A stretch of DNA of 64,000 nucleotides, from contig JAPHRK010000041.1 of NCBI GenBank assembly GCA_026196105.1, forward strand, positions 11,970 through 75,969, in the 5' to 3' direction. Positions 6,479 through 31,732 of the stretch are shown here, piece after piece. Within the stretch, counting starts at the first letter, position 1, and each line of letters opens with the position of its first letter. The position numbers were made by a program, and so were the translations under genes. A model generated the notes under the pieces. That model worked only from the letters and a program-made list of their open reading frames with translations, was not told the DNA's origin and made no database searches. Source of the DNA: Rhodospirillales bacterium (GTDB lineage: Bacteria; Pseudomonadota; Alphaproteobacteria; Rhodospirillales; JAPHRK01).

Positions 6479-8248
6479 ATGGTTAAGAAATTTGCGATCT
6501 TAAACTGTTTTAAATCTAGTTTAGCTGAATCAGAGTCAGCCCAAAGGATTGTAGAAACAGCAAAAAAAATTGGTGTAGAGGTTGGCATATTTACGAATAT
6601 TAAAAAGGTTGAGGAATTTAAACCTGATTTTATCCTCCCTTTCTCATTCCATGACCCGAAACTAAATGCCATTCCTACATATGGCTTGATGACACAACCT
6701 ATAAAGTACTGCATTGGCTCAAGTGCTAATATTCGAAATATATTGACTTATGACGGGTATGTTACTGTTTCCAACGATGTCCGGAATTGGCTCGAAGATA
6801 TTACCTTTGGGGCTCGTAAAAACACTCCAATAGCTTTTTATGCCAATACGATCGGAGAAACTGAGTTTCCAGGTATTGACTATTCAAAGCCATCTTTAGC
6901 ATATTTTGGTACCAACTGGGATGGTGAACGCCATGGTCGATTATTTCCAATCCTATCAAGTAAACCCTATATGCGTATTTATGGACCACCTGAAAAATGG
7001 GGACATATTAATCAAGGGGCAATGAAGGGGAAATTGCCATTTGATGGAAAGGCAGTTCTTACGGCCTATCAAGGTGCGGGGGTAGGTCTATGCATTAATC
7101 GAAAAGAGTTTATGGACTCTCAACTACCAACGAACCGTATCTTTGAGATTACGGCATCAGGGGCTGTTGCTATTTGTGGACGGGATCCATGGATTGAAGA
7201 GCACTTTGGTGACACTGTCTTGTATGTTGATATGGAAAAAGATATATCAACATTATCAGCTGATATTGACGCCCATATGAAATGGATTGCTGGTAATCCT
7301 GCTAAAGCTAAAGAAATTGCTCAAAAGGCCCATAATATTTTTCTTGAGAAATTTACTCTAGAGAAAATGCTGCAAAACCTATTTGTTTTTCATGAAGAGG
7401 TGCTTGCTACTCATGGGTTGATTAAAACAGATGAGCGTTCGGATGACCCAGAGGTATCTGTAGTCGTGAGAACTGGTGGACGCCCTGCTTGGATGTTAGA
7501 GCGTTGTATCAGTAGTCTTGCGAAACAAACTTATGGAAAGATTACGACGTTGCTTGTTGTTCATAGCCCTCAAGAAGGGATTGATGATTTAGAAGAAAAA
7601 TACCCAGATATTAATTTTAGAATTATTGATACTCCAGGCGCTAAACATGCAACAGCACTTTGGACAGGGTTCCGTCATGTGAAAACAGAATATTTTGCTA
7701 TTCTTGACGATGATGATGAAGTTTTCCCAAATCATTTTTTCACCCTTTTCAATACTCTTCGTCGCTATAACAAAGCAAAAAATTGGTATGGTGAAGTACG
7801 CTTAGCTTATTCAGGTTCAGTTGAGCGGAAACACAAAGGGTTCTATGATGAGAGACTTCCAGAACCTGACTTGATGATACCACGCTTATCTCCAGCTCGT
7901 TTGAAGTTATTTGAGTTTTTCCAAACACAAAACTATCTATCAACTGAATTTCCTTTAGGGACCTGCTGTGTTTTGATGAAGTCAGACTTGTTGGATGAGG
8001 AAACCTTGAGAGAGCCACGTCTTAGCATCGGTGAGGATTTGTATTTCTTTAATCTCATGTGTGAGAAAACCTTCTTTGCTTTTACAGGGCATCTGACAGC
8101 ACAAATTCATACTCATGAGTATGGGCAAACAGGTTTTACGACTGATATGGATGGGTGGGTAGGGTCCCGAATGAGTATCACTTTTAGTACTTGGGGCCGC
8201 AGTTTTCCATCTATGGGAACACTCCTACAATTCCGTCCAAACGTGTAG
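6479..8248 (+). CDS. Two-domain glycosyltransferase: CgeB-like/GT-B N-terminal half plus GT2 (GT-A) C-terminal half
   Basis: The C-terminal half has a GT2 signature (VSVVVRTGGRP...LAKQTY...ILDDDDEVFPNHF). The N-terminal ~300 aa (YFGTNWDGERHG...RIFEITASGAV) are paralogous to the N-terminus of 17103-18785. Confidence 0.65.
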   Translation: MVKKFAILNCFKSSLAESESAQRIVETAKKIGVEVGIFTNIKKVEEFKPDFILPFSFHDPKLNAIPTYGLMTQPIKYCIGSSANIRNILTYDGYVTVSNDVRNWLEDITFGARKNTPIAFYANTIGETEFPGIDYSKPSLAYFGTNWDGERHGRLFPILSSKPYMRIYGPPEKWGHINQGAMKGKLPFDGKAVLTAYQGAGVGLCINRKEFMDSQLPTNRIFEITASGAVAICGRDPWIEEHFGDTVLYVDMEKDISTLSADIDAHMKWIAGNPAKAKEIAQKAHNIFLEKFTLEKMLQNLFVFHEEVLATHGLIKTDERSDDPEVSVVVRTGGRPAWMLERCISSLAKQTYGKITTLLVVHSPQEGIDDLEEKYPDINFRIIDTPGAKHATALWTGFRHVKTEYFAILDDDDEVFPNHFFTLFNTLRRYNKAKNWYGEVRLAYSGSVERKHKGFYDERLPEPDLMIPRLSPARLKLFEFFQTQNYLSTEFPLGTCCVLMKSDLLDEETLREPRLSIGEDLYFFNLMCEKTFFAFTGHLTAQIHTHEYGQTGFTTDMDGWVGSRMSITFSTWGRSFPSMGTLLQFRPNV

Positions 8249-8252
8249 ATTT

Positions 8253-9227
8253 ATGAAGTATCGAGCACTTGGTAACTCCTCTTTAAAATTATCAGAAATT
8301 GGGTTTGGCTGCTGGGGAATTGGGGGTAGAACACTTGGAGAGACGTCTTATGGGGAAACTAATGATCAAGAATCTTTGGAGGCCTTGAATAAGGCTCTAG
8401 AGGTTGGGATAAATTTTTTTGATACCTCCAATGTTTATGGTGCAGGGAAAAGTGAAGAGCTGATAGGAAGTGTTGCTACAGATCATCGTGATGAGATGAT
8501 CATTGCGACCAAGGCTGGTTGGAATGACTACTCAGGGAAAAATGACTATTCACCTTCTGCAATTACAGCTTCATTAGAAGCTAGCCTCAGGCGATTGCAA
8601 ACGGAGTATATTGATCTTCTGCAGCTCCATAATCCGCCTATTGATGACTTGGAAACTCATCCTGAAATTGTCGAAAATCTAGAAAACCTTAAAAAGCATG
8701 GTAAAATGAGAGAGTGGGGTTTTTCTATCAAAAACCCGATGGATGGTTTGAAGATTTTAGAGCGATATAATCCAGCATCCCTGCAGGTTAATTTTAATAT
8801 GCTGGACGATAGGGCATTAAGTTGTGGGCTGCTTGAGAAGGCAAGAGAAAAGGGGGTTGGTATCATTTCACGAACACCTTTGTGCTTTGGGTTTTTATCA
8901 GGTGATATTGATGAAACCACGACTTTCTCTCCCGGGGATCATCGCCTGGCATGGTCAGTAAGCCTCAAAAAAATATGGGCTCAATCTGCTCGAAAAATTA
9001 AGGCGCAACACCCATTACAGCAGGGTGAAACCATGATTCAATCGGCTCTTCGATTTTGCCTGTCATTTTCAGGCGTAGCCAGCACGATTCCGGGTATGCT
9101 CAAGGCTGATGAAGTGGTTGAAAATGCCAAGGCCAGCTTACAAGGGCCGCTCCCCCCAAGCGTTCTGGCCTCAATTACCAAAATTAATGAGGCAGTGGCA
9201 GCCGATTTTCAGCAAGTAAAGCCTTAA
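8253..9227 (+). CDS. Aldo/keto reductase family oxidoreductase
   Basis: AKR landmarks: GFGCWGIGG, FFDTSNVYG, YIDLLQLHNP. Length 324 aa. Confidence 0.8.
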   Translation: MKYRALGNSSLKLSEIGFGCWGIGGRTLGETSYGETNDQESLEALNKALEVGINFFDTSNVYGAGKSEELIGSVATDHRDEMIIATKAGWNDYSGKNDYSPSAITASLEASLRRLQTEYIDLLQLHNPPIDDLETHPEIVENLENLKKHGKMREWGFSIKNPMDGLKILERYNPASLQVNFNMLDDRALSCGLLEKAREKGVGIISRTPLCFGFLSGDIDETTTFSPGDHRLAWSVSLKKIWAQSARKIKAQHPLQQGETMIQSALRFCLSFSGVASTIPGMLKADEVVENAKASLQGPLPPSVLASITKINEAVAADFQQVKP

Positions 9228-9975
9228 CTACGTCAAGGCTATCGACATCAAGCTCTGAGGTAATCAGTGCTGCTTTTGAATTGTCAATATCGGCTGAATG
9301 ATAATCATGATTGCCAAACTCGATATCATGCCCAACCATTGTGGCTAATTCTTTCAAGGTAACTCGTGAGGAAGACCCGATATTAAACGTTCCCTGGATG
9401 TTTTTCTCAAAACATGTCTCCAGAAATGTTGCGATCGTTTCATGGCTGATCACGTTATATTTTGAGCTTCCTTTAAGGCCAACACGACATTTTTTTTCGG
9501 TTAAAACCCTAACCAAGGTATTTCGACGGGCATAAGGCCCCATCATCATCGCGATGCGTAGTATCAGATAGTTTGGGCAGTTATTATGCACATGGCTTTC
9601 AGAAAGAAGCTTTGCCACAGGATAGGCCCCAATTAAGTTCCCTGGTTCAATGGTATATTTTTCATCAAAAGGACCAGGAGTCTGTGGATACACATCAATT
9701 GTTGAGGCCAAGACAAAGCGTTTATGGGGAATTTGGGTCAGACGTTCTGTGAGGCTTGCATTATCGTCCATATAGGATGCTAAGTTATGTAAACCAACAT
9801 CATGAGATGAATTAAAAGCACAGTGGATAATCGTCTCATAGGGTTCAACTGGGTGATACTGGGCGGCATCTAGTGGTGCACTACGATCAAAGGGTGTTCC
9901 TCCTAGAAATTCCAGCAAGTGGCTCCCCAAGCCTGAGCTTGTTCCAGTGATTAAGATGTTTGGGTTTCTCTGCAT
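9184..9975 (-). CDS. NAD(P)-dependent SDR (epimerase/dehydratase/reductase-like)
   Basis: N-terminal ILITGTSSGLGSHL dinucleotide-binding motif and YPVAK (YxxxK). Its 3' end overlaps the convergent AKR gene by 44 nt. Confidence 0.6.
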   Translation of the reverse strand: MQRNPNILITGTSSGLGSHLLEFLGGTPFDRSAPLDAAQYHPVEPYETIIHCAFNSSHDVGLHNLASYMDDNASLTERLTQIPHKRFVLASTIDVYPQTPGPFDEKYTIEPGNLIGAYPVAKLLSESHVHNNCPNYLILRIAMMMGPYARRNTLVRVLTEKKCRVGLKGSSKYNVISHETIATFLETCFEKNIQGTFNIGSSSRVTLKELATMVGHDIEFGNHDYHSADIDNSKAALITSELDVDSLDVVKALLAENRLPLPH

Positions 9976-9998
9976 TGTTGCTTCATTTGTCCTTTGAA

Positions 9999-11978
9999 TC
10001 AGAAAATTCCAGCGATCTGTTTTTCAACTGAGTCATTAGTATAAAGATAAGCGCCTTTTTTATTACCCCACCAAACCACTTCTGTTGCCCATCTGTTAAA
10101 ATCATCCCAAGTTTTGTTGCTTGAATTGATTTCTACCACAGTAGGAGAGGTTTCAAGCGTAGGGTTTTGTCCAATGCGTCGCCCAAGGTAATAACTTAAG
10201 ATGTTATGCTCAAGTTCGACCTTCTTATTCTCCGTGACAAAGGGTTGTTTAACTAAGGCGTGATTGAGTTTTATAGAGTCTTGAAGCGGAGCAAGATTTA
10301 TTCTTGATCCAACCAATGAAACGACAAGGCTTTCAGCTTCTACATAAAATTTATCTAAAGTGTTTTCATCTGTTAATTTGAGGAAAATATATTCATCAGC
10401 AGGCCAATAAATGCCCAGCCACTTCTCTGAAAAAGTATATTCAGGCCCACCATTTTGAATATCTTCAGCAGATTTACGGAAGAACTCAGCAATGTTGCTT
10501 AATGTTGGATATTTATTTGGGTCAGCGTTTAAAAAAGAATCGAAGAGTTTGCTAAACGAGATGCCCCCTAGGTCAGAGGCTACCAATAAGGGTATTTGGA
10601 ACATCTTGTCAAAATATAAGAAAGCAGCCATCCATGAAAACGCTCTTACTTCACGCCAAGCCTCTTTGGGCATGGTTTTGGTTGCAATGATCAAGTCTTG
10701 TTTTTCAAGAATATCATCTTCTAGGGCGTGAAGAGCTCCATGAATATTTATGATATTACTCTCAACCGTTTCAATTTCATGTTCTTTGCGATAGGCAGGG
10801 TTTGCCATTTCGGCATTCGGTAAAATACTTAGATTATTAAATTGGATACGGTTGTGTTGTCCGCTATTAATAAGCAAATCAACGCCTTCAATAAAGGTCT
10901 GATAGGTTTCTCCAGGAAGCGCGAGTATCAAATCGGAATAGGTTTCTACCCCGTCTTTGGTAAAACGGTTCATAAGGTCAAAGTAGGTATCAAGAGAGAT
11001 ATTGGAGCGCTTGATATTCTTGAGAGTAGCTTCATCAACACTTTGCATTGAGAGTGCGACACCTTTGTTAAGGCCCGCGTCTGAAAGAATTTTTTGAGTT
11101 TTATAAGCTCGTTCAGCAGCATTCTTTGTGTTTTGTACCGACAGAGCTTTTGGGTAACCTGTCCGTTCTTTAACTTCGGCGACTTTAGTAACAATTTCGA
11201 CGTCACGAGGCAAAATTCCAAAATTGGCATCACAGCAGAAAATGAATTCAATTTTATTGTCTGAGAACCAATCAATCTCTTTATTCAGGCGCTGAAGATC
11301 AAATTTATTGACCTTCGCTGCCGTTGCAGACCCCCAATCGCAAAAAGTACACTGGAAAGGACAGCCCCGATTGGTTTCCCAAAGCCCAATCCATCCATTA
11401 TCCGTATTGGCTTCAGTAGCCATGATTTCATCAAAGATGCCCTCAAGAAAAGGTGACGGAACTTCATCAAGAGATTTCAAACGGTCACGGCGACCAGAGA
11501 AGATAAAAGTGCCTTTATCTAGATAACTAATACCAGAAACATTTTTCAATTCTCTGCTTTGTAAAAGTTCTTCAAGCAGATGAGAGAATGTTTGCTCCCC
11601 TTCGCCATGAACCGCAATATCGATAAATGGATATTGGCGTAGGTACTCTTCACAATTGTCCGGGACGTGGGGGCCACCAAAAATAATAATTTGATCTGGG
11701 TTTAGAACCTTAAGACGGCGGGCAGCCTCTAAAGAAATCTGATTGTTCCAAACATAAGTGCTAAAGCCAACAATATGAGCTGATTGCAACGCCTCAACCA
11801 TTTCTCTAATAGGTTGGCGTTTGTAAAGGAGGGGGAGAAATTGTGTATTTTTTTTGATCTCAGGAACACGTTGGGCATAAGCTTGCAAAAGCCCAATAGA
11901 ATAAGGGAGATAATGTTGACCTGAAAAACTATTATTTACTTGGGCAAGTCCTATGATCAGGGGAGTGTCTTCAGGCAT
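9999..11978 (-). CDS. B12-binding-domain radical SAM enzyme (class B, methyltransferase-like) with long C-terminal extension
   Basis: N-terminal cobalamin-binding-like Rossmann region (IVGFSTYVWN...IIFGGPH) followed by NRGCPFQCTFCDW (Cx3Cx2C). ATG 11978 has AGGAG 5 nt upstream, so I prefer it to the track's TTG at 12014. Confidence 0.75.
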   Translation of the reverse strand: MPEDTPLIIGLAQVNNSFSGQHYLPYSIGLLQAYAQRVPEIKKNTQFLPLLYKRQPIREMVEALQSAHIVGFSTYVWNNQISLEAARRLKVLNPDQIIIFGGPHVPDNCEEYLRQYPFIDIAVHGEGEQTFSHLLEELLQSRELKNVSGISYLDKGTFIFSGRRDRLKSLDEVPSPFLEGIFDEIMATEANTDNGWIGLWETNRGCPFQCTFCDWGSATAAKVNKFDLQRLNKEIDWFSDNKIEFIFCCDANFGILPRDVEIVTKVAEVKERTGYPKALSVQNTKNAAERAYKTQKILSDAGLNKGVALSMQSVDEATLKNIKRSNISLDTYFDLMNRFTKDGVETYSDLILALPGETYQTFIEGVDLLINSGQHNRIQFNNLSILPNAEMANPAYRKEHEIETVESNIINIHGALHALEDDILEKQDLIIATKTMPKEAWREVRAFSWMAAFLYFDKMFQIPLLVASDLGGISFSKLFDSFLNADPNKYPTLSNIAEFFRKSAEDIQNGGPEYTFSEKWLGIYWPADEYIFLKLTDENTLDKFYVEAESLVVSLVGSRINLAPLQDSIKLNHALVKQPFVTENKKVELEHNILSYYLGRRIGQNPTLETSPTVVEINSSNKTWDDFNRWATEVVWWGNKKGAYLYTNDSVEKQIAGIF

Positions 11979-12121
11979 TGTGTCTCCTAAGGTGTTTTTG
12001 GTAACAATCAGCAAATCATTAACAATATATCTGTGTCTTGAAGACGAATTATGCCAATGAAAATTGATTGTTAAGACTTTAAGGCGATAACTTAGAGTAA
12101 TTATTTGAAAAAGAGGTTAAC

Positions 12122-13399
12122 TTGGGTAATCAATCTGAACAACTAAAAGTCGTCAGGGAGGCTATAGGGGCTTTTCGCGATACTTTTCCGCCATCAATAT
12201 TTGATCCGAAAAATCCAATTGTTCGGCTTCATGAGCCGACATATGGCACCGATGAGATTTTTGCGGTTACTGAAAAACTACTGTTAGATCGAATTACCAT
12301 GGGGGAAGCTGTTCGAGCTTTTGAACAAACTTTCAGTGATTATGGAAGGTACGCTGAAAGCGTATCTGTTAATTCAGGGTCGTCAGCTAATCTATTGGCA
12401 ATTGCAGCTCTGGTAAATCCAGAAATGGATAATCCGATGAAGCCTGGTGATGAAGTTATTGTTTCTGCACTTTCTTGGGCGACAACGGTGTGGCCGCTGG
12501 TTCAGTTTGGCTTGGTCCCTGTCATTGTCGATATTGATCCACTGACCCTTAATCTTGACCCAAATGAGGTTGAGAAAGCAATAGGACCAAAAACAAAAGC
12601 TGTGATGCCTGTGCATGTTTATGGCAACCCTTGTGATATGGATGCCCTCTGTTCAATTTGTGAGAGCCACAACCTTTATCTCATCGAGGATTGTTGTGAG
12701 GCTTTAGGGGCAGAATACAATGGTAAGGCTGTTGGAAAATTTGGTCATATTGGGACTTTTAGTTTTTACTTCTCACATCATGCCACGACCCTAGAGGGCG
12801 GTATGTGCGTGACGGAAAATTTCCAACTTTCTGAGTTGTGTCGTATTTTACGTGCCCATGGTTGGACCCGTGACTGTAAGGACAAGGCAGGACAGCAGGC
12901 ACGGTTCCCTGAAATTGATCCCAAGTTTCTTTTTGTAAATAGTGGCTTCAATCTCCGTATTAGTGAGCCCCAAGGGGCCATGGGAACCATTCAGGTGAAA
13001 AAACTTGAGGGTTTTGTTTCTAAACGTCGTGAGAATGCAAATTATTGGAGGAATGCCTTAAGCAATCATGCTGCATGGCTTCATCTTCAAACTGAACAAA
13101 ATAAAGGTAAAAATTCTTGGTTTGGAATTCCGATCACAGTGGATGCCTCAGCACCTTTTACAGCTATGGAAATACGTGACGCTCTGGAAAATAATGGTAT
13201 TGAAACTCGTTCAATCATTTGTGGAAATATAGCCCGTCAGCCTGGTATGAAACTTTTTGAGCATCGTGTTTGTGGGGATATGTCCCATGCCAATCATATT
13301 ATGGGGGCTGGTTTTTCTTTTGGTAATCATCAAGCCATCGGCCCCGATGCTCTTAATCATATTCAATCTGTCATCAATAACTTTTTGGCTAAGTATTAA
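12122..13399 (+). CDS. PLP/PMP-dependent sugar 3-dehydratase, ColD/E1-like (DegT/DnrJ/EryC1 fold)
   Basis: Close to my recollection of ColD: GTFSFYFSHHATTLEGGMCVT and RAHGWTRD. The position normally holding the Schiff-base Lys carries SHH, with no Lys in the motif. TTG start has AGAGG 5 nt upstream. Confidence 0.7.
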   Translation: MGNQSEQLKVVREAIGAFRDTFPPSIFDPKNPIVRLHEPTYGTDEIFAVTEKLLLDRITMGEAVRAFEQTFSDYGRYAESVSVNSGSSANLLAIAALVNPEMDNPMKPGDEVIVSALSWATTVWPLVQFGLVPVIVDIDPLTLNLDPNEVEKAIGPKTKAVMPVHVYGNPCDMDALCSICESHNLYLIEDCCEALGAEYNGKAVGKFGHIGTFSFYFSHHATTLEGGMCVTENFQLSELCRILRAHGWTRDCKDKAGQQARFPEIDPKFLFVNSGFNLRISEPQGAMGTIQVKKLEGFVSKRRENANYWRNALSNHAAWLHLQTEQNKGKNSWFGIPITVDASAPFTAMEIRDALENNGIETRSIICGNIARQPGMKLFEHRVCGDMSHANHIMGAGFSFGNHQAIGPDALNHIQSVINNFLAKY

Positions 13400-13401
13400 T
13401 C

Positions 13402-14400
13402 ATGACCCAGACAAATATTAAAACTGTTTTGATCACAGGCATTACCGGGTTTGTCGGAAGCCATCTTGCTGAATATATTTTAAGCGATCACCCTGGGATC
13501 AATATTCACGGCCTGAAAAGATGGAGAAGCCCGAAGGATAATATTCGTAATATCCAGAACCGTGTGACATTACACGATGGGGACCTGAATGACTTGTCTT
13601 CTCTGTTGACTGTTTGTCAGGACGTAAAACCGGATGCTATTTTCCATTTGGCAGCCCAATCATATGTGCCGACAAGTTATAAGGCCCCTGTCGATACCAT
13701 CCATACCAACGTAATTGGGACGACAAATCTTTTGGAAGCTTTGCGTATCGCGAAGCTTGATCCTGTAGTGCATATTTGTAGTTCCTCAGAGGTCTATGGT
13801 CAGGTACAGCCTGACGAAGTTCCAATCACGGAAGCCACACCTCTTCGTCCTGCTAGTCCTTATGCGGTGAGTAAGGTTGGAGAAGATATGATTTCCTACA
13901 CTTACCATCAGGCCTATGGCATAAAAACTATTCGTAGCCGTATGTTTACTCATAGCGGCCCGCGCCGAGGTGAAGTGTTTGTTGATAGCTGGTTTGCCTT
14001 GCAGCTAGCTCGTATTGAAGCTGGGCAGCAGGACCCCGTTATTAAAGTTGGAAACCTCGACTCAGTTCGTACTTTTTGTGATGTCCGAGATACCGTTCGA
14101 GCCTACTGGATGCTGGTCAATAAATGTCCTCCAGGTGAGGTCTATAATATTGGTGGTGTTGAGACGATGACAATACGAGAGATGCTGGAAAAGCTTCTCA
14201 CTATGAAACGTAAAGGGACACCCGAGATTGAAGTCAAAGTAGATCAGACCCTTATCAGACCAGCGGATGTAACCTTGCAAATACCCTGTACTGATAAATT
14301 CGGAAAAGAAACTAATTGGAAACCAGAAATTCCTTATGAGCAGTGTTTAAAAGATATGCTCGATTATTGGCGTCACCAGGTTGCTGTTGGTTTGATCTAA
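13402..14400 (+). CDS. GDP-sugar 4,6-dehydratase / 4-reductase family SDR (GMD/Rmd-like)
   Basis: VLITGITGFVGSHL, SSSEVYG, SPYAVSK (YxxxK), and DPVIKVGNLDSVRTFCDVRD typical of the GMD/Rmd clade. It is the only candidate 4,6-dehydratase in the island. Confidence 0.65.
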   Translation: MTQTNIKTVLITGITGFVGSHLAEYILSDHPGINIHGLKRWRSPKDNIRNIQNRVTLHDGDLNDLSSLLTVCQDVKPDAIFHLAAQSYVPTSYKAPVDTIHTNVIGTTNLLEALRIAKLDPVVHICSSSEVYGQVQPDEVPITEATPLRPASPYAVSKVGEDMISYTYHQAYGIKTIRSRMFTHSGPRRGEVFVDSWFALQLARIEAGQQDPVIKVGNLDSVRTFCDVRDTVRAYWMLVNKCPPGEVYNIGGVETMTIREMLEKLLTMKRKGTPEIEVKVDQTLIRPADVTLQIPCTDKFGKETNWKPEIPYEQCLKDMLDYWRHQVAVGLI

Positions 14401-15125
14401 TGGAGCTAAAGGGGGTAGACGCAATCATTTTAGCCGGAGGTTTAGGCACTCGCTTACGTGCAGTCGTCCCCGACACGGCAAAGCCTTTGGCCGAAGTAGG
14501 GGGCGCTCCTTTCCTTGCCTTTGTTCTTCGTTGGCTAAAAGACCAAGGCATTGAACGAATTATCCTTGCTGTTGGTTATAAATCAGATCAATTCCCACCA
14601 TTTATTAAAAATCTTGGAAAGTTAGGTGAAAACGTCAAAGTTTCTTATGAAGATGAACCATTGGGGACTGGCGGTGCTTTGCGATTAGCTGCTGATCTCA
14701 GTGAAGGTAAGACGATGTTGGTTATGAATGGCGATAGCTACATTGATCTTGACCTACAAGCTTTTGCTGATGCTCATGAAAGGGCAGGGGCTAAATCAAC
14801 TATTGTTGTTACGAAGGTCCAAGATACCTCTCGTTTCGGTCGGGTAGAAATAGATATGGATAACAAGGTTACGGCATTTCGGGAGAAGCAACCTAATTCA
14901 GAAGCGGGCTCTATTAATGCCGGGGTTTATTTGCTTGATAAATCAGTTGTGAACTCCCTCCCAAAGAACCAAAATATCTCCTTGGAAAAAGAGGTGTTCC
15001 CGTCGCTTCTTGATGGTCGCCTAGCTGCCTTTGAAACGAAGGGGCGTTTTATCGATATTGGTACGCCTGAGACCTTTGCTATAGCCGCAGAGGTGTTAGG
15101 TATAGAACAGGATGCTAACCCATGA
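14400..15125 (+). CDS. Sugar-1-phosphate nucleotidyltransferase (HddC-like heptose-1-phosphate guanylyltransferase)
   Basis: AIILAGGLGTRLR and GTGGAL motifs. ATG 14400 overlaps the upstream TAA (TAATG). The track's 14343 start would run inside the previous gene. Stop overlaps the next start (ATGA). Confidence 0.7.
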   Translation: MELKGVDAIILAGGLGTRLRAVVPDTAKPLAEVGGAPFLAFVLRWLKDQGIERIILAVGYKSDQFPPFIKNLGKLGENVKVSYEDEPLGTGGALRLAADLSEGKTMLVMNGDSYIDLDLQAFADAHERAGAKSTIVVTKVQDTSRFGRVEIDMDNKVTAFREKQPNSEAGSINAGVYLLDKSVVNSLPKNQNISLEKEVFPSLLDGRLAAFETKGRFIDIGTPETFAIAAEVLGIEQDANP

Positions 15126-16135: not shown

Positions 16136-16143
16136 CTTAAGCT

Positions 16144-18785: not shown

Positions 18786-18809
18786 TGGTCTTTTTTGAGG
18801 AATACCAAT

Positions 18810-19838: not shown

Positions 19839-19875
19839 AAGTTCTATTTATGGATGATATTGAGCAATTTTTTAA

Positions 19876-20817: not shown

Positions 20818-20909
20818 TGTCGGAATTTATTAAGTATTTTCTGAGTAAGTTAAACTTATTTCTTAACTTATAGGGTTGCAGGAAGAATTCCAGCAAGTGA
20901 AAATATAGA

Positions 20910-22914: not shown

Positions 22915-22948
22915 GGGGCATCTGGTATAAGTATTTGGAGTTTTATGG

Positions 22949-24943
22949 ATGATCGTCTTAGGGCTTAATTTTGGTCATGATGCAGGCATATCAATAATCA
23001 AAGACGGAGTGATTTTAACGCATATCGTTCGAGAACGTATCAATAGAGCAAAGCATGCGCTTGGCCTTGAAGATAGTAGTTTCCTAACTCAAGTCTTTAA
23101 TGATTGTGCTATTGATCCGGCCTCAGTCGATTATGTTGCTGTAACCTCCACTCAAGGTCATGGCATGATTGGGGCTATTAATGACCTTGAAATTCAATAT
23201 GCTCATAGTACCAATACCTCAATTGAAATTTCTGGTAAACTTAAACTTCTATATTCAAGTGTTGGAGACAAGGCCGTAAATGAAACTGAAGAAGGTGTGC
23301 TTGATCTAATCTATAGCTCTGGGGATACACCAATACAGAAGTATCTCCGTGGAATGTTTCCTGCTTATAAAGCTGTTAAAAGGGATGAGCTTTACGTAGA
23401 ACCCTGTGTGCATAATTTTGGTGCCATTGAAAGCCGTTGTGATAAACCTATTGGTCTAGATGAAATTAATGCAAGTGTTCCTAAAGATGTGATTGGGAAT
23501 GAAGAGCTAAGCCGTTCATTACATTTGCCAATTGTTGCTAGTTTATTTGGCCGAACAGTTCCGGGGTGTTTGATTCAGCACCATGCATGCCATGCGTCAG
23601 TTGCGTACTACTCTAGTAAACAAAAACATGCTGCCATACTCTCTCACGATGGCGGAAGCTATGAAGAAGGAAATAGCCACAAATGTGGTATGTTTTATTA
23701 TGGCAAAGAGCAGAAAATTTATCCCCTTGCACCTCATAACATAACAGTTGGCGTTTTTTATGATTTAGTTGGTGTTCATCTTGGTTTTGATTTTTGGGGA
23801 GCCGGTAAATTAATGGGATTATCCTCATATGGTAAACCTCGGTTCTTTGACCGTAAATTTGTTGGTAATGATCATGACTTGTCTCAGCGTGGTTTAACCC
23901 ATGCAGCCGATAAGTGGATTTCCCATTGTGAAAAACTGGCAAATGAAATGGGATACGAATTTCTTAAGCTTGGTGACCCAAGATTAGTTCTTAATCGATT
24001 TATTGTTGATATTGCTTCAAGTACACAAAAAATATTCGAAGAAACTGTCCTGAAAGCATGTGAGGTCTTATATGACATTACTGTTAAAATTGGAGAAGTA
24101 ACACCTACAGTTTGTTTGAGTGGAGGAACTGCACTGAACTGTCCAACAAACTCTCGGGTGTTTAATGAGAGTAGATTTAAAAACGTATTTGTTCCTCCTG
24201 CATGTGATGATAGTGGTTTGTCGACAGGTGCCGCTTTTTTCCTCTACCATAATTTGCTTGGTTTTCCCTTAGTTGAAGAACAAAAGGAAATCGCCGTATC
24301 GCCGTATTACGGACTGAGAAATAGCTATTCAAAAGAAGCATTAGAAGAAGCCTATGAAGAATATCAAGGCAGGGTATGTGTTGAATATATTACTGATGCC
24401 GCAAAAAGAGCAGTAGAAGATCTTATGGAGAATAAAATTATTGCTTGGTTCGAGGGAGCTAGTGAAGTGGGACCCCGAGCTTTAGGGCATCGGTCCTTGT
24501 TAGCTGACCCACGGCAGGCAAAAAACTGGCGAAGAATGAATAAGGTTAAAGGACGTGAACATTGGCGTCCTTTTGCTCCAATTGTGCTTGAGGAAAAGGC
24601 AGCTTCTTGGTTTCGTGGAACTCCGGTCCCATCTCCATATATGCTTTTCACAGGCGATGTAACAGACCCTCGCATACCTGCAGTTACACACGTTGATGGG
24701 ACAGCTAGAATTCAGACTTTAAATAGTGAAAATGGTAAAATTTATTCTGTCGTTAAGGAGTTTTACAAGAAAACAGATGTTCCGGTTATTTTGAACACAT
24801 CGTTTAATGGTCCAGGTGAGCCAATTGTCGAAACACCTAAAGAAGCTTTCAACTTCCTGGTATCGACAAATTTAGATGTTTTATATATAGAAGGTGTCCG
24901 TATTACACGTAGCAAAGGGGATGGGGAAGCTCTTGGATTATAA
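22949..24943 (+). CDS. NodU/CmcH-family O-carbamoyltransferase
   Basis: N-terminal MIVLGLNFGHDAGISIIKDG, HHACHA, and C-terminal EVGPRALGHRSLLADPR...TSFN. GGAG lies 8 nt upstream of the ATG. Confidence 0.85.
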   Translation: MIVLGLNFGHDAGISIIKDGVILTHIVRERINRAKHALGLEDSSFLTQVFNDCAIDPASVDYVAVTSTQGHGMIGAINDLEIQYAHSTNTSIEISGKLKLLYSSVGDKAVNETEEGVLDLIYSSGDTPIQKYLRGMFPAYKAVKRDELYVEPCVHNFGAIESRCDKPIGLDEINASVPKDVIGNEELSRSLHLPIVASLFGRTVPGCLIQHHACHASVAYYSSKQKHAAILSHDGGSYEEGNSHKCGMFYYGKEQKIYPLAPHNITVGVFYDLVGVHLGFDFWGAGKLMGLSSYGKPRFFDRKFVGNDHDLSQRGLTHAADKWISHCEKLANEMGYEFLKLGDPRLVLNRFIVDIASSTQKIFEETVLKACEVLYDITVKIGEVTPTVCLSGGTALNCPTNSRVFNESRFKNVFVPPACDDSGLSTGAAFFLYHNLLGFPLVEEQKEIAVSPYYGLRNSYSKEALEEAYEEYQGRVCVEYITDAAKRAVEDLMENKIIAWFEGASEVGPRALGHRSLLADPRQAKNWRRMNKVKGREHWRPFAPIVLEEKAASWFRGTPVPSPYMLFTGDVTDPRIPAVTHVDGTARIQTLNSENGKIYSVVKEFYKKTDVPVILNTSFNGPGEPIVETPKEAFNFLVSTNLDVLYIEGVRITRSKGDGEALGL

Positions 24944-26468
24944 TTATGTGGTTTGCAAAAAATTAGAAGAAGTATTTCAAGGTAAGCCTGTAATATTTGT
25001 CGGACATCATGATAATTTAATATCATTGATGAGTATTCATCATAAGGTATTCAACAAACTTGCTCCTTTTTGTGACGACTATTCCCCCCCGGAAATGGGA
25101 CCTATAAAAACCTTTAATTTATTTGAGCTTCCTAAAGAAGCATTCGCGTCCTACTCCTTTGTTATATGCAGTCCTTTTTTTCCAAAATATAGAATGTTTT
25201 TGTTAAAGTTAGGAGTTAAAGATATAAAAAATGCATATTTTCTCCTCAACAATAAACTTGCTCAAATAACAGATTGTTGTGAAAAGGAAACTGATGAAGA
25301 AAGGTTTGCAAAATCAAATTGGTTTCCCTGGTTACTTGAGATGGCATACGGGAAAAATCGCCGTATAGCTGTTGATGAATTAAGATTTGTATTCAAACTT
25401 AAAAGAAATGAACTTACCCAGCTATCTGATACGTATTCTCCAAATGAATTAATGGAATATTTGATGGGAAAAACTCCGTATGGTTTTTTTTCTTCTGAAG
25501 ATACTAACTTTTTTTGGGGGCAGCTTGCTTGGATATTTATGCTTACCGGACAGCTTGGGGACGCTTGGGCTTCTTACGAGTTGTCAAAAGTTGCCATCCG
25601 GCGGAAAGATGGAACAAATTTTTTTCCTCAACCCGTGTGGAGAGGAGAGTCTCTAAATGATAAATCTATTGTCGTTTGGCGCGATGCAGGGCCAGGGGAT
25701 GATATTCTTTATAGTGATCAAATTAATGACCTCAAAAAGTTAGGCGCACAAAAAATATTTTTTGAAGTTGAGGATCGTTTAATACCTTTGATGCAACGGT
25801 CATTTCCTTTTGCTGAAGTTGTTGGAAGAAGTGACCCTTCTGATACAATTTTGGAACAAGCAGATTTTCAAGCCACCTCAACCAGTATTTTTAAAAGAAC
25901 ACGTTTAAAGTTTTCAGATTTCCCAAAAAAACAATACTTGTTTCCAAATGTTGACAGACAAAAGCATAGAAGAGATTGGGTTTTAGAAAAATCGGTAGGT
26001 AAGCCGGCGCTAGGGGTTTGTTGGCGAACATCAGATCGATTAAACCACTCAAACTATATTTTTGATGCTTTGACTTGGGGAAAAATTTTTAAGCTAAGGG
26101 AATTTAGCTTCTTTTGTTTGCAGTATGACGATTGCGAAGAAGAGTTGCTTTCTGTTGAAAAAGAATTCGGTATCAACATACAAAGGTTTCAAGATGTCGA
26201 TATGTACAATGATTTTGATGAGTTATCAGCAATAATAAAATCATTGGATTATGTTGTTTCGATTAATACCGTAATTTCTAATTTAGCAGGTGCATTGCAG
26301 GTGCCGTCAATTTTATTAGAAGCTGATTTTTGCCATACTCACTTAAGTAGTGAAACATCTAGCCCCTGGTATGGGCAACAGGATATGGTTCGGTACCGGC
26401 ATACCAGAACATTGGAAGAAGCAATAGAAAAAGCTTCTCTATTATTGACAAGATATATTAAAGACTAG
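24921..26468 (+). CDS. GT9-like (heptosyltransferase-fold) glycosyltransferase with a ~250-aa N-terminal domain of unknown function
   Basis: The C-terminal half resembles GT9 proteins: VVWRDAGPGDDILY...ALGVCWRTS...FFCLQYD...DFDELSAIIKSLDYVVSINTVISNLAGALQVPSILL. The start is ambiguous (GTG 24894, ATG 24921 or GTG 24948). Confidence 0.5.
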   Translation: MGKLLDYNYVVCKKLEEVFQGKPVIFVGHHDNLISLMSIHHKVFNKLAPFCDDYSPPEMGPIKTFNLFELPKEAFASYSFVICSPFFPKYRMFLLKLGVKDIKNAYFLLNNKLAQITDCCEKETDEERFAKSNWFPWLLEMAYGKNRRIAVDELRFVFKLKRNELTQLSDTYSPNELMEYLMGKTPYGFFSSEDTNFFWGQLAWIFMLTGQLGDAWASYELSKVAIRRKDGTNFFPQPVWRGESLNDKSIVVWRDAGPGDDILYSDQINDLKKLGAQKIFFEVEDRLIPLMQRSFPFAEVVGRSDPSDTILEQADFQATSTSIFKRTRLKFSDFPKKQYLFPNVDRQKHRRDWVLEKSVGKPALGVCWRTSDRLNHSNYIFDALTWGKIFKLREFSFFCLQYDDCEEELLSVEKEFGINIQRFQDVDMYNDFDELSAIIKSLDYVVSINTVISNLAGALQVPSILLEADFCHTHLSSETSSPWYGQQDMVRYRHTRTLEEAIEKASLLLTRYIKD

Positions 26469-26521
26469 TTGTTCAAGTTATCGATCTTTGATTTTTGTTA
26501 TTGTTGAAGTGTGTGTAAAAG

Positions 26522-27796
26522 TTAAAAGTTTTGAGGGTTTAGTGGTGCTCCCAGAGAAATTTGGGAAAGTTTCTTAATTTTACGGGTTAGGATATTTTTC
26601 CGGAACAAAATATTTAAGGGGATATAATAATTTCCAATTAGCCAATTGATGATGATATCAATTTCTTCAGGAGTTTTATAATCCTTTATTGGAGGAAGTT
26701 CTTCTATAGATTGCAAGGATAATGCATCAGCAAAGCCCGTTGTGTGGTTCTCCCCTAAGACGACTAATTTGCGATCAAATAGTTTTGCCCATAAAGCAGC
26801 ATTTGAATAGATAGAAATAATGCCATCGCAAAGTGGTACTAATAAATGAGTTGGAGACCTAGAGATACTATTTACATTTATAAAAATAAAATTTGGATAG
26901 GATTGCTCAAGGTATTTTCTTGTTTCAAGACTAATGTCGTCAATTGAATAAGGGATTGGGGTGACAATGAGTGCTCTTTCAGGCCCGAGTTCTTCGAGAA
27001 TATGACAGACTAAATCTAGTATCGTTGTGGGGATATCTTTTGGCCAATGAGGGCAATTCGGCCATTGAAGTGGGAATAGCCAAAGCTCTTTAAATTGTCT
27101 GCGCCATTCTCCTATATGAGGAGCATAAGGGTTATTTGTCTGTAGTGTGTTGTGGATTTTATCCCTAAACTTGTAATGTTCATTAAGAGGGCGACCAATA
27201 CCTTTAACTTGATCTGCAAATTGTGATAATGCGTTTGGCTGATTTGTCAATTTAGCAAGAGCAGAGTTTTTAACAGTTCCCGAGGGGTCTAAAAAACCTG
27301 AAGCAGGGAATGGCCACGAATTAAAGGGGCCCGTTTCAAAGAAAAGCATTGGAGTTTTGGGAAATGCTTGCTTTAGGAATGGTGCTTCAGAGAAGGAAAT
27401 TATGACGTCCGGGGTAAAATCAGCTACTAACGATTTGGTATAATTAGCCATAATCTCTAGTTGATTTTCTGAGTAATTCCCATTGTACCAAAGCTTCACG
27501 AAATCTTTTGATGAAGGTCCAAAATGTTTACGGATCTCTTTGTTATCTATGATAGATAAGCAAGATTCTGGGGCTTTAATGACGTTTGGTAGTATATCCC
27601 AACATTTTTCTGGTATATCGTTCTTCAGGAATAGTTTCGCAAGGTGGTTTGGAAGAATTATACGAAAATTTGAAATACACTCTTCTTTGTCAGTTGTAAG
27701 GGCTGATATCATTAATGTAGAATAATAGACCCACCATAAACGTATATTGGGTTTTTCCCATTCAATTGTTGGTTCAATATAAAATAATATTTTCAT
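26522..27796 (-). CDS. Hypothetical protein, possibly a GT-B-type glycosyltransferase (KpsS/Capsule_synth-like FPLQ motif)
   Basis: MKILFYIEP start and LWLFPLQW, reminiscent of the PLQ motif of capsule Kdo-transferase-like proteins. Otherwise no motif I can name. Last gene of a four-gene minus-strand operon. Confidence 0.3.
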   Translation of the reverse strand: MKILFYIEPTIEWEKPNIRLWWVYYSTLMISALTTDKEECISNFRIILPNHLAKLFLKNDIPEKCWDILPNVIKAPESCLSIIDNKEIRKHFGPSSKDFVKLWYNGNYSENQLEIMANYTKSLVADFTPDVIISFSEAPFLKQAFPKTPMLFFETGPFNSWPFPASGFLDPSGTVKNSALAKLTNQPNALSQFADQVKGIGRPLNEHYKFRDKIHNTLQTNNPYAPHIGEWRRQFKELWLFPLQWPNCPHWPKDIPTTILDLVCHILEELGPERALIVTPIPYSIDDISLETRKYLEQSYPNFIFINVNSISRSPTHLLVPLCDGIISIYSNAALWAKLFDRKLVVLGENHTTGFADALSLQSIEELPPIKDYKTPEEIDIIINWLIGNYYIPLNILFRKNILTRKIKKLSQISLGAPLNPQNF

Positions 27797-27798
27797 AA

Positions 27799-28500
27799 TT
27801 ATTTTTCATTTTCCTCATTACTATTCTTTAAGAATAATTGCCCGTCATCATAATGGGAGCCTTCTCCCCTGGTGAGGCTTGCTGAAATAAAATCCATTTG
27901 TAAGTACTGGCTTTGGGAAAAAAGACGAACAATATCTTCAAAGCCATCAAAATATTCTTTTCCATAACGTTGAGTGCCATTCTGAAAAAAGGCCTGAACT
28001 AAAAGAAGATACCCATCTTGTTTCAAAAATTTTTTACAATTTAAAAGTGCATTTTCAAACGAAGGCATAATATACCAGAATATTTGGTTTTGTATAACAA
28101 CATCAACATTATCTATCGGTGGCAACCCATCTGCTTCTAATATGTTTCCTACATGAAATTCACATTGAGGGTACTGTTTTTGAGCTTTTTTTACCGCTGT
28201 AGGACTAATATCAATGCCTATTGCTCTTTTTACATTAGGTAATTGCAGCATTAGGTTTGTAACAACCCCTAGGCCGGAACCAATCTCCAGAACAGTTACA
28301 GTACCTAAACCTTTTAAAGTATTTAGTATCCGTTCACGGGAAGAATGATAGTATTGAGACATGCTGTCATCTTTGCCGCATTGTCCCCATGGATCATTTT
28401 CATTTTGATAACATCCTTCAAAGTCACCGACAAATTCAATACGACCATCATTGTTTTCATGGAAAATATTTCCAATAGATCCTTTTGGAGGTTGAGACAT
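27799..28500 (-). CDS. Class I SAM-dependent methyltransferase
   Basis: VLEIGSGLGVVT (motif I) and VDVVIQNQIFWY. ATG 28500 sits 1 nt after the upstream TAG. The track start at 28524 is a TTG inside the upstream gene. Confidence 0.75.
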   Translation of the reverse strand: MSQPPKGSIGNIFHENNDGRIEFVGDFEGCYQNENDPWGQCGKDDSMSQYYHSSRERILNTLKGLGTVTVLEIGSGLGVVTNLMLQLPNVKRAIGIDISPTAVKKAQKQYPQCEFHVGNILEADGLPPIDNVDVVIQNQIFWYIMPSFENALLNCKKFLKQDGYLLLVQAFFQNGTQRYGKEYFDGFEDIVRLFSQSQYLQMDFISASLTRGEGSHYDDGQLFLKNSNEENEK

Positions 28501-28501
28501 T

Positions 28502-30844
28502 CTATTGTTTTCCTTTAAAAACAAAATCTAGGCCATCACAAATAATTTGAGATGCCGTATCCACTTCATTCCTCGTGTGAGCAGCTGACATAAATAGGAT
28601 ACCGTTTGATGGAATATGCAAACCGTTTGCACGACAAAATAAATCAAAGATTTGCTTATCTTTAAACCATTTTTCTGCGAAATCTCTTTCGCGCCTATTA
28701 GTTACTTGCTGTTGTGTGAAAATAAGGCGGCTCATAGACTCAACGCCAATCGCTTGAGTTGAGTATGAATGCCTCTGACAGTGTTTATTTATCTGAGACC
28801 TAAAAGACGTGCTATCGCTATTAAGCTTATCAAAAAGGGTTTGCCCAAGATCATCAATAGCATTTAAAGCAGCTTGGCCTGCTGTAATTGTTAAGGGATT
28901 AGCAGAAAAAGTGCCACCCAAAAACACCGGTGGGTTTCCATTTCGCCCTTCCTTAATTGTTTCTACGATCTCTTTTTTTACTCCGACTGCTCCAATGGGC
29001 AATCCTCCACCAATTATTTTACCGAGGGTAATAATATCTGGAATAACATCAAAATATTGGCTGCCAGATTTATTAAGGCGGATGCCTGTTATAACTTCAT
29101 CAAAACAGAGAAGAATTCCTAATTTAGATGTTGTTTTTCGCAGCTTATTTAAGAATGGGCCTATGGTGCCTAGAATTGTTGAGCCTTGAACTGGCTCAAT
29201 AATCACCATCGCAATTTGATCTGCACTCTTCTCAAGCAAATCAAATGCATTGTCATTGTTATATGGAAGCATAATTAAATGATCACTTAACCCATTTATT
29301 AGGCCTCCAGATAATGGTGTGAAAGTAGGATTATCTGATTGAGATGAATAATCTTCAGCAATTAGTGACCAGTCCTGCCCGCCATGCCACCCACCAGAGA
29401 AAACGGCTATTTTATTCTTACCAGTATGTGCTCTACCAATACGCATAGCTCGCATTGTTGCTTCAGAACCACTGTTGCAAAATGCAAAATTATCAACAAA
29501 TGGAAATTGTTTTTCTAGAGTTTGACCAAACTTATTAGCTTCAATCGTAGTTCTTAAATGTGCCCACCCTTTTTGGGTTTGCTGGGAGATCGCTTGAGCA
29601 ATTTTGGGGTGGGAATGACCGAGTAAAGCAGAACCTGCAGCCATGCCGAGGTCAATTAAGTGATTGCCATCCGTATCAATAAGGGTGCTACCAGTTGCTC
29701 TTTCTATGTATAAAGCATCGTTTCCCTTTGGACTATAACCCTCATTTAGTAGCTCGTTTTTATTGTGGTTTTGGGTTAATAAATGCGTTTTTTTGTTATT
29801 TTTACTTATGTAATCGGTAATTTTTTTTTGGGTGGTAAAACCCATATTTTTATTTTTCTGTATTTTTTTTCGAGCTATAACAAGGATATTTCCTGCCATT
29901 TGCTTAGTTAATAAATATCTTTCGAGTAACTCGGTAAAACTCTCGTCACTAATAACTTCTGATAAAAAATTTCCAAGGTCGTTTTTTGTTAATTTTCCTT
30001 CAGAAAACCACTTCTGGACATATGTAATATCTAAAGATGGGTTAAGGGTATGACATTCTTGAACTTCAAAATCATTTTTAGATAATAGTAGTTTAATATT
30101 CTTTTCATTCATAAGATTAACATGCCCAGGTGGAAGTATTTGAACATGTTTTTCTTGGGCTGTTAACCATTCAAAACTAAATGTATTTGGCGTGGAAAAA
30201 ACAAAGTAACCATTGTCATTTAATAATTCTCGTATTGTAGTCAACATAGAATTTTGATCTACGATATGTTCTAATGTATCCCACATTGTAACAATATCGT
30301 ACGTTTCTTCACCAATGAGGTTTTTTGCATCGGCATGAATTATTTTGGTATCTGGGTACCTGAGCTTAAGGTCTCTACAGGCTTCTTCATTTAAATCGCA
30401 GCATGTTACCTCAAAGGAAGTTTGTGCTCTTTTAAGGGCTTCTACGAAAACGCCTATTGCTGAACCAATATCTAATAACTTTCCTTCTGTATTTAATGTT
30501 TCAAGCAAAGTAATTCTTGGGCCAAACAAATCCACACGGTTCTCAAAACTTTCACGGAAAAATTCATTCTCAAACGCTTTCATTTCGCTGTTGTAGTAAG
30601 CTCCAATTTGTTCATCGTTTGGATATGGGTTGCAAAAAATTAACCAGCATGAATTACATTTTGACATATTAAAGCCAAATACCGTTACAAAATCAGTAAC
30701 GTTTTTTGACTCGCAAATAGGGCATGCTGTAAGCTTTGATTGTTCTTTTCCAAGTGATAGGATCTGAGAACAAACCTCAGTCATCATTTTAAACAATAAT
30801 GTCTGTTTTTTTTCTGTATGGATATCGTCAAAGTTAAGAGCCAT
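28502..30844 (-). CDS. Fusion protein: Zn-ribbon + class I SAM methyltransferase (N) / class III aminotransferase, glutamate-1-semialdehyde aminomutase-like (C)
   Basis: N-terminal part: CPICESK...CNSC, LLDIGSAIGVF, YDIVTMWDTLEH. C-terminal part: FCNSGSEATMRAMRIGRAHTGKNKIAVFSGGWHG, FDEVITG, TLGKIIGGGLP. The Lys/Asn-rich linker contains A8 and A9 runs. Confidence 0.75.
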   Translation of the reverse strand: MALNFDDIHTEKKQTLLFKMMTEVCSQILSLGKEQSKLTACPICESKNVTDFVTVFGFNMSKCNSCWLIFCNPYPNDEQIGAYYNSEMKAFENEFFRESFENRVDLFGPRITLLETLNTEGKLLDIGSAIGVFVEALKRAQTSFEVTCCDLNEEACRDLKLRYPDTKIIHADAKNLIGEETYDIVTMWDTLEHIVDQNSMLTTIRELLNDNGYFVFSTPNTFSFEWLTAQEKHVQILPPGHVNLMNEKNIKLLLSKNDFEVQECHTLNPSLDITYVQKWFSEGKLTKNDLGNFLSEVISDESFTELLERYLLTKQMAGNILVIARKKIQKNKNMGFTTQKKITDYISKNNKKTHLLTQNHNKNELLNEGYSPKGNDALYIERATGSTLIDTDGNHLIDLGMAAGSALLGHSHPKIAQAISQQTQKGWAHLRTTIEANKFGQTLEKQFPFVDNFAFCNSGSEATMRAMRIGRAHTGKNKIAVFSGGWHGGQDWSLIAEDYSSQSDNPTFTPLSGGLINGLSDHLIMLPYNNDNAFDLLEKSADQIAMVIIEPVQGSTILGTIGPFLNKLRKTTSKLGILLCFDEVITGIRLNKSGSQYFDVIPDIITLGKIIGGGLPIGAVGVKKEIVETIKEGRNGNPPVFLGGTFSANPLTITAGQAALNAIDDLGQTLFDKLNSDSTSFRSQINKHCQRHSYSTQAIGVESMSRLIFTQQQVTNRRERDFAEKWFKDKQIFDLFCRANGLHIPSNGILFMSAAHTRNEVDTASQIICDGLDFVFKGKQ

Positions 30845-30877
30845 TAGGGAGTAATCTCGCGGGTGATTTTAATATCT

Positions 30878-31732
30878 TTAAAGTTTCCACTTATCTACAT
30901 GATTAAAGCCATGAAGCGTTCCATCAGCGTTGCACTGGTCGCAAGGGGCAGATGATCTTTTTCCATTAGCTAAATTTCTTCTTATCTTGGTCAGGTGCTT
31001 TGTAGACCATATGTCTAATAGGTTGTTTGCATACACATTTCCAAATTTTAATTTTTTGTGCCAATCCTGAACACAAAGCAATGCATCACCATTCCAGTCT
31101 ATTGACATCGAATAATGTGGGTAAAAGCACTTTTTATTCTGGATAACTTTGTCTTGTTTCCCCCAGGCGACAGTTCCGGCTCTATTCGTTAGTTTTAGGC
31201 CAAAGTTATCTGCTTCTGAGTGCCAGCGGTCTCTTAAAATGTATTGATTTTTTTTGATGCCTGCTTTGTTAAACATATTTTGGAAATGTTTAACCTGATC
31301 TTCTCCATCATACATGCTGACCACGATCATATTAACGTTTGTGGCATATAGTTCTCGGATCAATTCTTCATTTAGTTTATCTCCATTTGTAACTATTTCC
31401 AAACGAGTTTTTTTATCAAATAATGAACAAATTTCTAATATCTCGGGATGTAGTAACGGCTCTCCATAACCGCATAAAAGAACGCCACCTTTATATGAAA
31501 TTGCAGATAACTCGTCTGCAATTTTTTTTATAAGTTTTTTTGAAATATGATTGTTTTGATTTGGGTATAGATCTGAGTTTGCGCGTGGGCAAAAAGTACA
31601 AACCCGATTGCACAGATCAGTAGTGCTGATCTCAACCCAACTAAATAGAGGGATTTTCCCGATCATTTGGACTTTGTCGATAAATGATGATTTCCGTCTA
31701 AGGTTTTCTTTTGTTGCTTTTGTTAAGGTCAA
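30878..31732 (-). CDS. Radical SAM enzyme with partial SPASM/twitch-type auxiliary-cluster motif
   Basis: TDLCNRVCTFCP (Cx3Cx2C). C-terminal CFYPHYSMSIDWNGDALLC (Cx12Gx4C) then CDQC. TTG start has GAGGA 7 nt upstream. Confidence 0.75.
   Translation of the reverse strand: MTLTKATKENLRRKSSFIDKVQMIGKIPLFSWVEISTTDLCNRVCTFCPRANSDLYPNQNNHISKKLIKKIADELSAISYKGGVLLCGYGEPLLHPEILEICSLFDKKTRLEIVTNGDKLNEELIRELYATNVNMIVVSMYDGEDQVKHFQNMFNKAGIKKNQYILRDRWHSEADNFGLKLTNRAGTVAWGKQDKVIQNKKCFYPHYSMSIDWNGDALLCVQDWHKKLKFGNVYANNLLDIWSTKHLTKIRRNLANGKRSSAPCDQCNADGTLHGFNHVDKWKL

What the first reader, a model, noticed from the sequence alone, without database searches (positions are those of the whole stretch)
6479..31732. 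25-kb glycan biosynthesis island made only of soluble enzymes: no initiating transferase, flippase, polymerase, ligase or exporter
Seen in the sequence: the island holds 20 consecutive genes. They comprise:
- nucleotide-sugar synthesis genes;
- tailoring enzymes: a carbamoyltransferase, two radical-SAM enzymes, two to three methyltransferase domains, an aminotransferase domain, a TPP E1 pair, an AKR and SDRs;
- five glycosyltransferase-like proteins: two CgeB-like/GT2 hybrids, a GT2, a GT9-like protein and a possible GT-B protein.

None has an obvious multi-TM segment. I find no WbaP/WecA-type, Wzx/Wzy, Wzm/Wzt, Kps or WaaL-like gene.

Established knowledge: O-antigen and capsule loci normally carry such membrane components. 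Cytoplasmic protein glycosylation systems, such as flagellin O-glycosylation or autotransporter heptosylation, do not.

Inference: the island may build a heavily decorated deoxy-sugar glycan directly on a cytoplasmic acceptor such as a protein. Alternatively it may rely on export genes elsewhere in the genome.
Basis: partly seen in the sequence, partly recalled or inferred. Interest (0 to 1): 0.55.

Follow-up and report, generated by a model that had tools for sequence, protein, structure and literature searches.

The report
Soluble-only sugar-chain island, acceptor unknown
A 25-kb acquired gene island in a Rhodospirillales bacterium makes rare decorated deoxy-sugars and joins them into a chain using only soluble enzymes; relatives suggest the chain is put on a protein inside the cell, but a surface polysaccharide exported by genes elsewhere is nearly as likely.

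Summary
Positions 6479-31732 are tiled by 20 genes with the stated enzyme domains. None has a transmembrane segment or a Wzx/Wzy/Wzm/Wzt/WbaP/WecA/WaaL-type domain. The source is a Rhodospirillales MAG, so the 'CgeB-like' label carries no spore meaning.

The sugar genes point to GDP-activated 6-deoxy/3,6-dideoxy sugars: a ColD-type 3-dehydratase, a two-carbon-branching E1 pair, C-methylation and carbamoylation. One unassigned protein has a GT9-fold domain. Its best annotated relatives are TPR fusion proteins beside flagellin genes in Azospirillum. The other unassigned protein is an ORFan.

About 120 related loci fall into two groups. One has the same sugar genes and hybrid transferases directly beside wzm/wzt. 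The other is soluble-only, carries the E1 pair and usually a TPR protein or TPR-GT9 fusion. The window belongs to the second group by gene content.

My ranking:
- Cytoplasmic glycosylation of a protein (flagellin-type or another exported protein): about 0.42.
- Und-PP-linked polysaccharide with unlinked ABC export: about 0.33.
- Chain built on lipid A-core: about 0.10.

No flagellar gene lies near any locus, and the acceptor is unproven.

The parts
6479..8248 (+). Hybrid glycosyltransferase, 589 aa: GT-B-type PF13524 ('CgeB-like') N-terminal half plus GT2 C-terminal half
   Evidence: Pfam. 141 homologues in Alphaproteobacteria and cyanobacteria. No TM segment.
8253..9227 (+). Aldo/keto reductase
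   Evidence: Pfam PF00248, E 1e-57. Conserved next to the hybrid GT in L004, L007 and L058.
9184..9975 (-). Short SDR (epimerase/reductase type), 263 aa
   Evidence: Pfam. 74% identical in L004.
9999..12014 (-). B12-binding radical-SAM enzyme, KedN5-family C-methyltransferase type
   Evidence: Pfam. NCBIfam NF033712, E 8e-91 (below the family cut-off).
12122..13399 (+). DegT-family PMP-dependent sugar 3-dehydratase (ColD/E1 type), not an aminotransferase
   Evidence: Best PDB matches are the E1 dehydrase 3bcx and ColD 2gms. It has His at the position of E1 His220 ('SHH' against 'AHH'; the H220K mutant 3bb8 marks the site). It lacks the Cys-rich Fe-S insert of E1..
13402..14400 (+). NDP-sugar 4,6-dehydratase, closest to GDP-mannose 4,6-dehydratase
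   Evidence: PF16363, E 6e-82. TIGR01472 gmd is the best NCBIfam hit, below cut-off.
14343..15125 (+). Sugar-1-phosphate nucleotidyl (guanylyl-type) transferase
   Evidence: PF00483. Best NCBIfam hits are mannose-1-P guanylyltransferase and HddC, both below cut-off.
15122..16135 (+). GHMP sugar kinase, HddA-like
   Evidence: Pfam. NF049969, E 5e-41 (below cut-off). 44-58% identical in related loci.
16144..17103 (+). SDR epimerase/reductase (Fcl/ColC-like), the most conserved gene of the sugar module
   Evidence: Pfam; NCBIfam. 49-62% identical in both locus classes.
17103..18785 (+). Second transferase of the hybrid family, 560 aa; its GT2 half is not recognised by Pfam
   Evidence: PF13524 only. 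33% identical to the first hybrid over 86% of its length (P0092).
18795..19838 (+). GT2 glycosyltransferase, 347 aa, soluble
   Evidence: PF00535, E 1e-15. No TM segment.
19876..20817 (+). GDP-L-fucose synthase-like epimerase/reductase
   Evidence: NF047922, 486 bits against a cut-off of 500.
20910..21869 (+). Thiamine-diphosphate E1 alpha subunit (pyruvate dehydrogenase E1-like)
   Evidence: PF00676; TIGR03182. 43-49% identical in soluble-only loci and absent from the wzm/wzt loci.
21805..22914 (+). E1 beta subunit
   Evidence: PF02779/PF02780. 55-61% identical in L058, L059, L061, A. soli, L116 and L098.
22949..24943 (+). NodU/CmcH-type carbamoyltransferase
   Evidence: PF02543 + PF16861. 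The pairing with a homologue of the next gene is conserved in L047.
24894..26468 (+). Unassigned 524-aa protein: unknown N-terminal 200 residues plus a GT9-fold glycosyltransferase domain (about 205-520)
   Evidence: No Pfam hit. 17,708 representative homologues, mostly fused to TPR repeats. AF2 + Foldseek give TibC, WaaC, WaaF and 3tov. 33% identity, E 2e-41, to the flagellin-adjacent TPR protein of A. brasilense.
26522..27796 (-). ORFan, 424 aa, soluble; possibly a very distant Capsule_synth-like transferase
   Evidence: Only itself in the protein collection. Model unusable. Coding by codon usage. Weak collinear match to L061:556-1833, which hits PF05159.
27799..28524 (-). Class I SAM methyltransferase
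   Evidence: Pfam.
28502..30844 (-). Fusion of a SAM methyltransferase (about 110-260) and a class-III aminotransferase (about 374-770, glutamate-1-semialdehyde aminomutase-like)
   Evidence: Pfam; NCBIfam. The single hydropathy peak (604-622) lies inside the aminotransferase fold.
30878..31732 (-). Radical-SAM/SPASM enzyme, 284 aa
   Evidence: PF04055 + PF13186. The same domain type occurs in the A. soli and L058 loci.

Best explanation
The island is a horizontally acquired, self-contained cytoplasmic cassette that makes unusual sugars and joins them into a chain.

Sugar pathway (inferred):
- A GHMP kinase and a guanylyltransferase-type enzyme activate a hexose or heptose as a GDP-sugar.
- A Gmd-like 4,6-dehydratase and a ColD-type PMP 3-dehydratase convert it into a 4-keto-3,6-dideoxy intermediate.
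- Fcl/ColC-like SDRs and an AKR reduce and epimerise it.
- An E1 alpha/beta pair adds a two-carbon branch.
- A B12 radical-SAM enzyme C-methylates.
- Further enzymes carbamoylate, O/N-methylate and possibly aminate.

Chain assembly (inferred): the GT9-fold enzyme (24894-26468) places the first sugar on an acceptor that is available in the cytoplasm. This is most likely Ser/Thr of a protein that is later exported, either flagellin-type or another secreted surface protein. The two hybrid transferases, the GT2 and perhaps the ORFan extend the chain. The finished glycoprotein leaves through its own secretion route, so no lipid carrier, flippase, polymerase, ligase or polysaccharide exporter is needed.

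Shown: domain content, absence of TM segments, the ColD-type active-site His, the GT9 fold, and the gene neighbourhoods of relatives.

Inferred: the sugar structures, the order of steps, the priming role of the GT9-fold enzyme, and the protein acceptor.
For: 1. All 20 proteins are soluble. No export, initiation or ligation gene lies in the 64-kb window.
2. The window's gene set matches a recurrent soluble-only class of loci: L004 (62-92% identity, 7 genes), L058 (15 of 20 genes), L059, L061, A. soli, L116 and L098. In 7 of 7 loci with the E1 pair, no glycan-related membrane protein lies within about 10 kb; the only multi-TM proteins seen are cytochrome bd oxidase. Repeated absence in independent genomes argues that the pathway needs no dedicated membrane parts.
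3. Five of these loci carry a TPR protein. L060, L061 and L117 carry a TPR-GT fusion (596-1575 aa) with the same GT domain as 24894-26468, next to NeuB/NeuC-type genes.
4. The best annotated relatives of that GT domain are TPR fusion proteins immediately beside fliS, fliD, two flagellin genes, flgK and flgE in A. brasilense and A. lipoferum. Paralogues sit beside che operons.
5. TPR domains are the flagellin-binding determinant of FlmG and Maf-1. Maf-2, a flagellin transferase without TPR, works with a separate adaptor (PMC7591256; bioRxiv 2023.12.03.569772).
6. Among 55 loci of at least 15 kb, none has both Wzt and a TPR protein (12 and 8 loci respectively).
7. The P. syringae viosamine island is a precedent. 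It holds sugar synthesis genes plus an extending transferase for the flagellin glycan, sits between housekeeping genes, and is unlinked to fliC/fgt1/fgt2 (PMC3927599).
8. The top fold match, TibC, is a cytoplasmic protein heptosyltransferase.
Against: - No flagellin, FliD, FlgK, FlgE or FliS gene lies within about 10 kb of the hybrid transferase in any of about 120 loci, nor anywhere in the window.
- 24894-26468 has no TPR repeats, and no TPR protein is in the window.
- Homology of its domain to the experimentally studied FlmG was not tested, because no FlmG sequence was available. The Azospirillum proteins are uncharacterised, and more distant family members sit in non-flagellar contexts.
- The island has no nonulosonic-acid genes.
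- The hybrid transferase family and the core sugar genes are physically linked to wzm/wzt in L031 and L095, and hybrid transferase homologues sit near Wzt in about 22 further loci.
- The Wzt/TPR exclusivity is not significant (hypergeometric p about 0.12).
- The rest of the MAG could not be read.
Confidence: 0.42

Rival explanations
1. The island makes an undecaprenyl-diphosphate-linked surface polysaccharide (O-antigen or capsule type) by the ABC-transporter-dependent route. In that route every step after initiation is carried out by soluble or peripheral enzymes. The initiating transferase, Wzm/Wzt and the ligase would simply be encoded elsewhere in the genome.
For: - In L031 (a Coxiellaceae MAG) and L095, the GHMP kinase (55-57% identity), ColD-like enzyme (50%), SDR (59-62%) and two or three hybrid transferases lie co-directionally just downstream of wzm-wzt. 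L031 also has a 4-TM CoA_binding_3 protein and a GT4 beside them.
- L031 also shares an unknown gene with the soluble-only locus L059 (E 1e-59), so the two classes are truly related.
- Wzt, mostly with Wzm, lies within 10 kb of a hybrid homologue in about 24 loci, including Synechococcus PCC 7502 with a Wzt_C domain.
- Azospirillum argentinense plasmid p6 carries a soluble-only hybrid transferase cluster 45-95 kb from two Wzm/Wzt pairs on the same replicon.
- The island has lower GC (40.1%) than its flanks (47.3% and 45.9%) and sits between housekeeping genes, as O-antigen loci typically do.
- 3,6-Dideoxy and C-branched sugars are classical O-antigen components (established knowledge: colitose, yersiniose).
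Against: - No wzm, wzt, initiating transferase or ligase lies in 64 kb.
- The wzm/wzt class lacks the E1 pair, B12 radical-SAM enzyme, AKR and carbamoyltransferase that define the window's class. Its hybrid transferases are slightly more distant (31-32% against 35-38% identity).
- All seven E1-pair loci lack linked export genes.
- A TPR-family GT9-fold enzyme has no obvious role in this route.
Confidence: 0.33
2. The chain is built directly on lipid A-core at the inner face of the membrane, as an LOS-type outer core. The GT9-fold enzyme and the other soluble transferases do this, and the general lipid A flippase MsbA exports the product. No dedicated flippase, polymerase or ligase is then needed.
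For: - The closest solved folds to 24894-26468 include the LPS core heptosyltransferases WaaC and WaaF.
- HddA/HddC-like heptose-type activation genes are present.
- Five transferases, about seven catalytic domains, would give an oligosaccharide of LOS size.
- Core/LOS loci consist of soluble or peripheral enzymes only (established knowledge of waa and Campylobacter/Neisseria LOS loci).
Against: - The GT9-fold domain belongs to a TPR-associated family, not to the WaaC/WaaF/WaaQ families. No PF01075 or NCBIfam heptosyltransferase hit was found for the window protein.
- No Kdo, lipid A or other core genes lie nearby.
- Two-domain hybrid transferases suggest a repeating polymer rather than a defined core.
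Confidence: 0.1
3. The island tailors and attaches a deoxysugar to a small molecule, giving a glycosylated natural product or glycolipid, as in actinomycete antibiotic sugar pathways.
For: - The B12 radical-SAM enzyme is a KedN5-family C-methyltransferase type.
- An E1 alpha/beta pair, a carbamoyltransferase, an AKR and methyltransferases are typical of antibiotic deoxysugar tailoring (established knowledge: aldgarose and eurekanate branching, novobiocin carbamoylation).
- The A. soli locus has an AMP-binding/carrier protein.
Against: - No PKS, NRPS, terpene or other aglycone genes, and no efflux gene, lie in the window.
- Five transferases are many for a small-molecule glycoside.
- Relatives sit in loci that also carry nonulosonic-acid (NeuB/NeuC) genes or wzm/wzt export genes.
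Confidence: 0.05

Closest known systems
Pseudomonas syringae flagellin glycosylation: Fgt1/Fgt2 plus the unlinked 'viosamine island' (PMC3927599)
   Same: It is a soluble-only island of sugar-nucleotide tailoring genes plus an extending transferase. It sits between housekeeping genes, away from flagellar genes. The oligosaccharide is built on flagellin in the cytoplasm.
   Different: It has seven genes and uses dTDP-viosamine chemistry. The priming transferases are next to fliC. Here there are 20 genes, GDP-type 3,6-dideoxy/branched chemistry and five transferases, and flagellin is not shown to be the acceptor.
FlmG flagellin O-glycosyltransferase system of Caulobacter/Brevundimonas (PMC7591256; bioRxiv 2022.03.25.485807)
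   Same: It is a cytoplasmic protein glycosylation system in Alphaproteobacteria. FlmG is a two-part enzyme, TPR plus GT-B, of about 600 aa. That architecture is seen in the L060, L061 and Azospirillum relatives of the window's GT9-fold domain.
   Different: The window protein has no TPR repeats. FlmG transfers pseudaminic or legionaminic acid, for which the island has no genes. Sequence homology to FlmG itself was not tested.
ABC-transporter-dependent O-antigen/capsule loci, for example the Coxiellaceae-type loci L031 and L095 found here
   Same: They share the GHMP kinase, ColD-like dehydratase, SDR and hybrid two-domain transferases, with soluble enzymes throughout the elongation steps.
   Different: Those loci carry wzm, wzt and an initiating-transferase-like gene and lack the E1 pair. 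The window has none of the former and has the latter.
GDP-colitose pathway (Gmd, ColD, ColC)
   Same: A Gmd-like dehydratase is present. The DegT-family enzyme has His in place of the PLP lysine and no Fe-S insert, as in ColD. Fcl/ColC-like reductases are present.
   Different: The additional branching, C-methylation, carbamoylation and amination enzymes imply a product beyond colitose. The nucleotide carrier and the starting sugar (hexose or heptose) are inferred, not shown.
TibC/AAH autotransporter heptosyltransferases (BAHT family, GT9 fold)
   Same: These are soluble GT9-fold enzymes that glycosylate a secreted protein in the cytoplasm. TibC is the best fold match by E-value.
   Different: Sequence identity is only 12-14%. 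No autotransporter lies next to the island, and the iron-binding and dodecamer features were not examined.
Two-carbon-branched deoxysugars made with thiamine-dependent enzymes (yersiniose; aldgarose and eurekanate with E1 alpha/beta pairs), cited from established knowledge
   Same: An E1 alpha/beta pair is embedded among 4-keto-deoxysugar enzymes.
   Different: Those pathways use CDP- or dTDP-sugars, in O-antigen or antibiotic contexts. Nothing here was tested biochemically.

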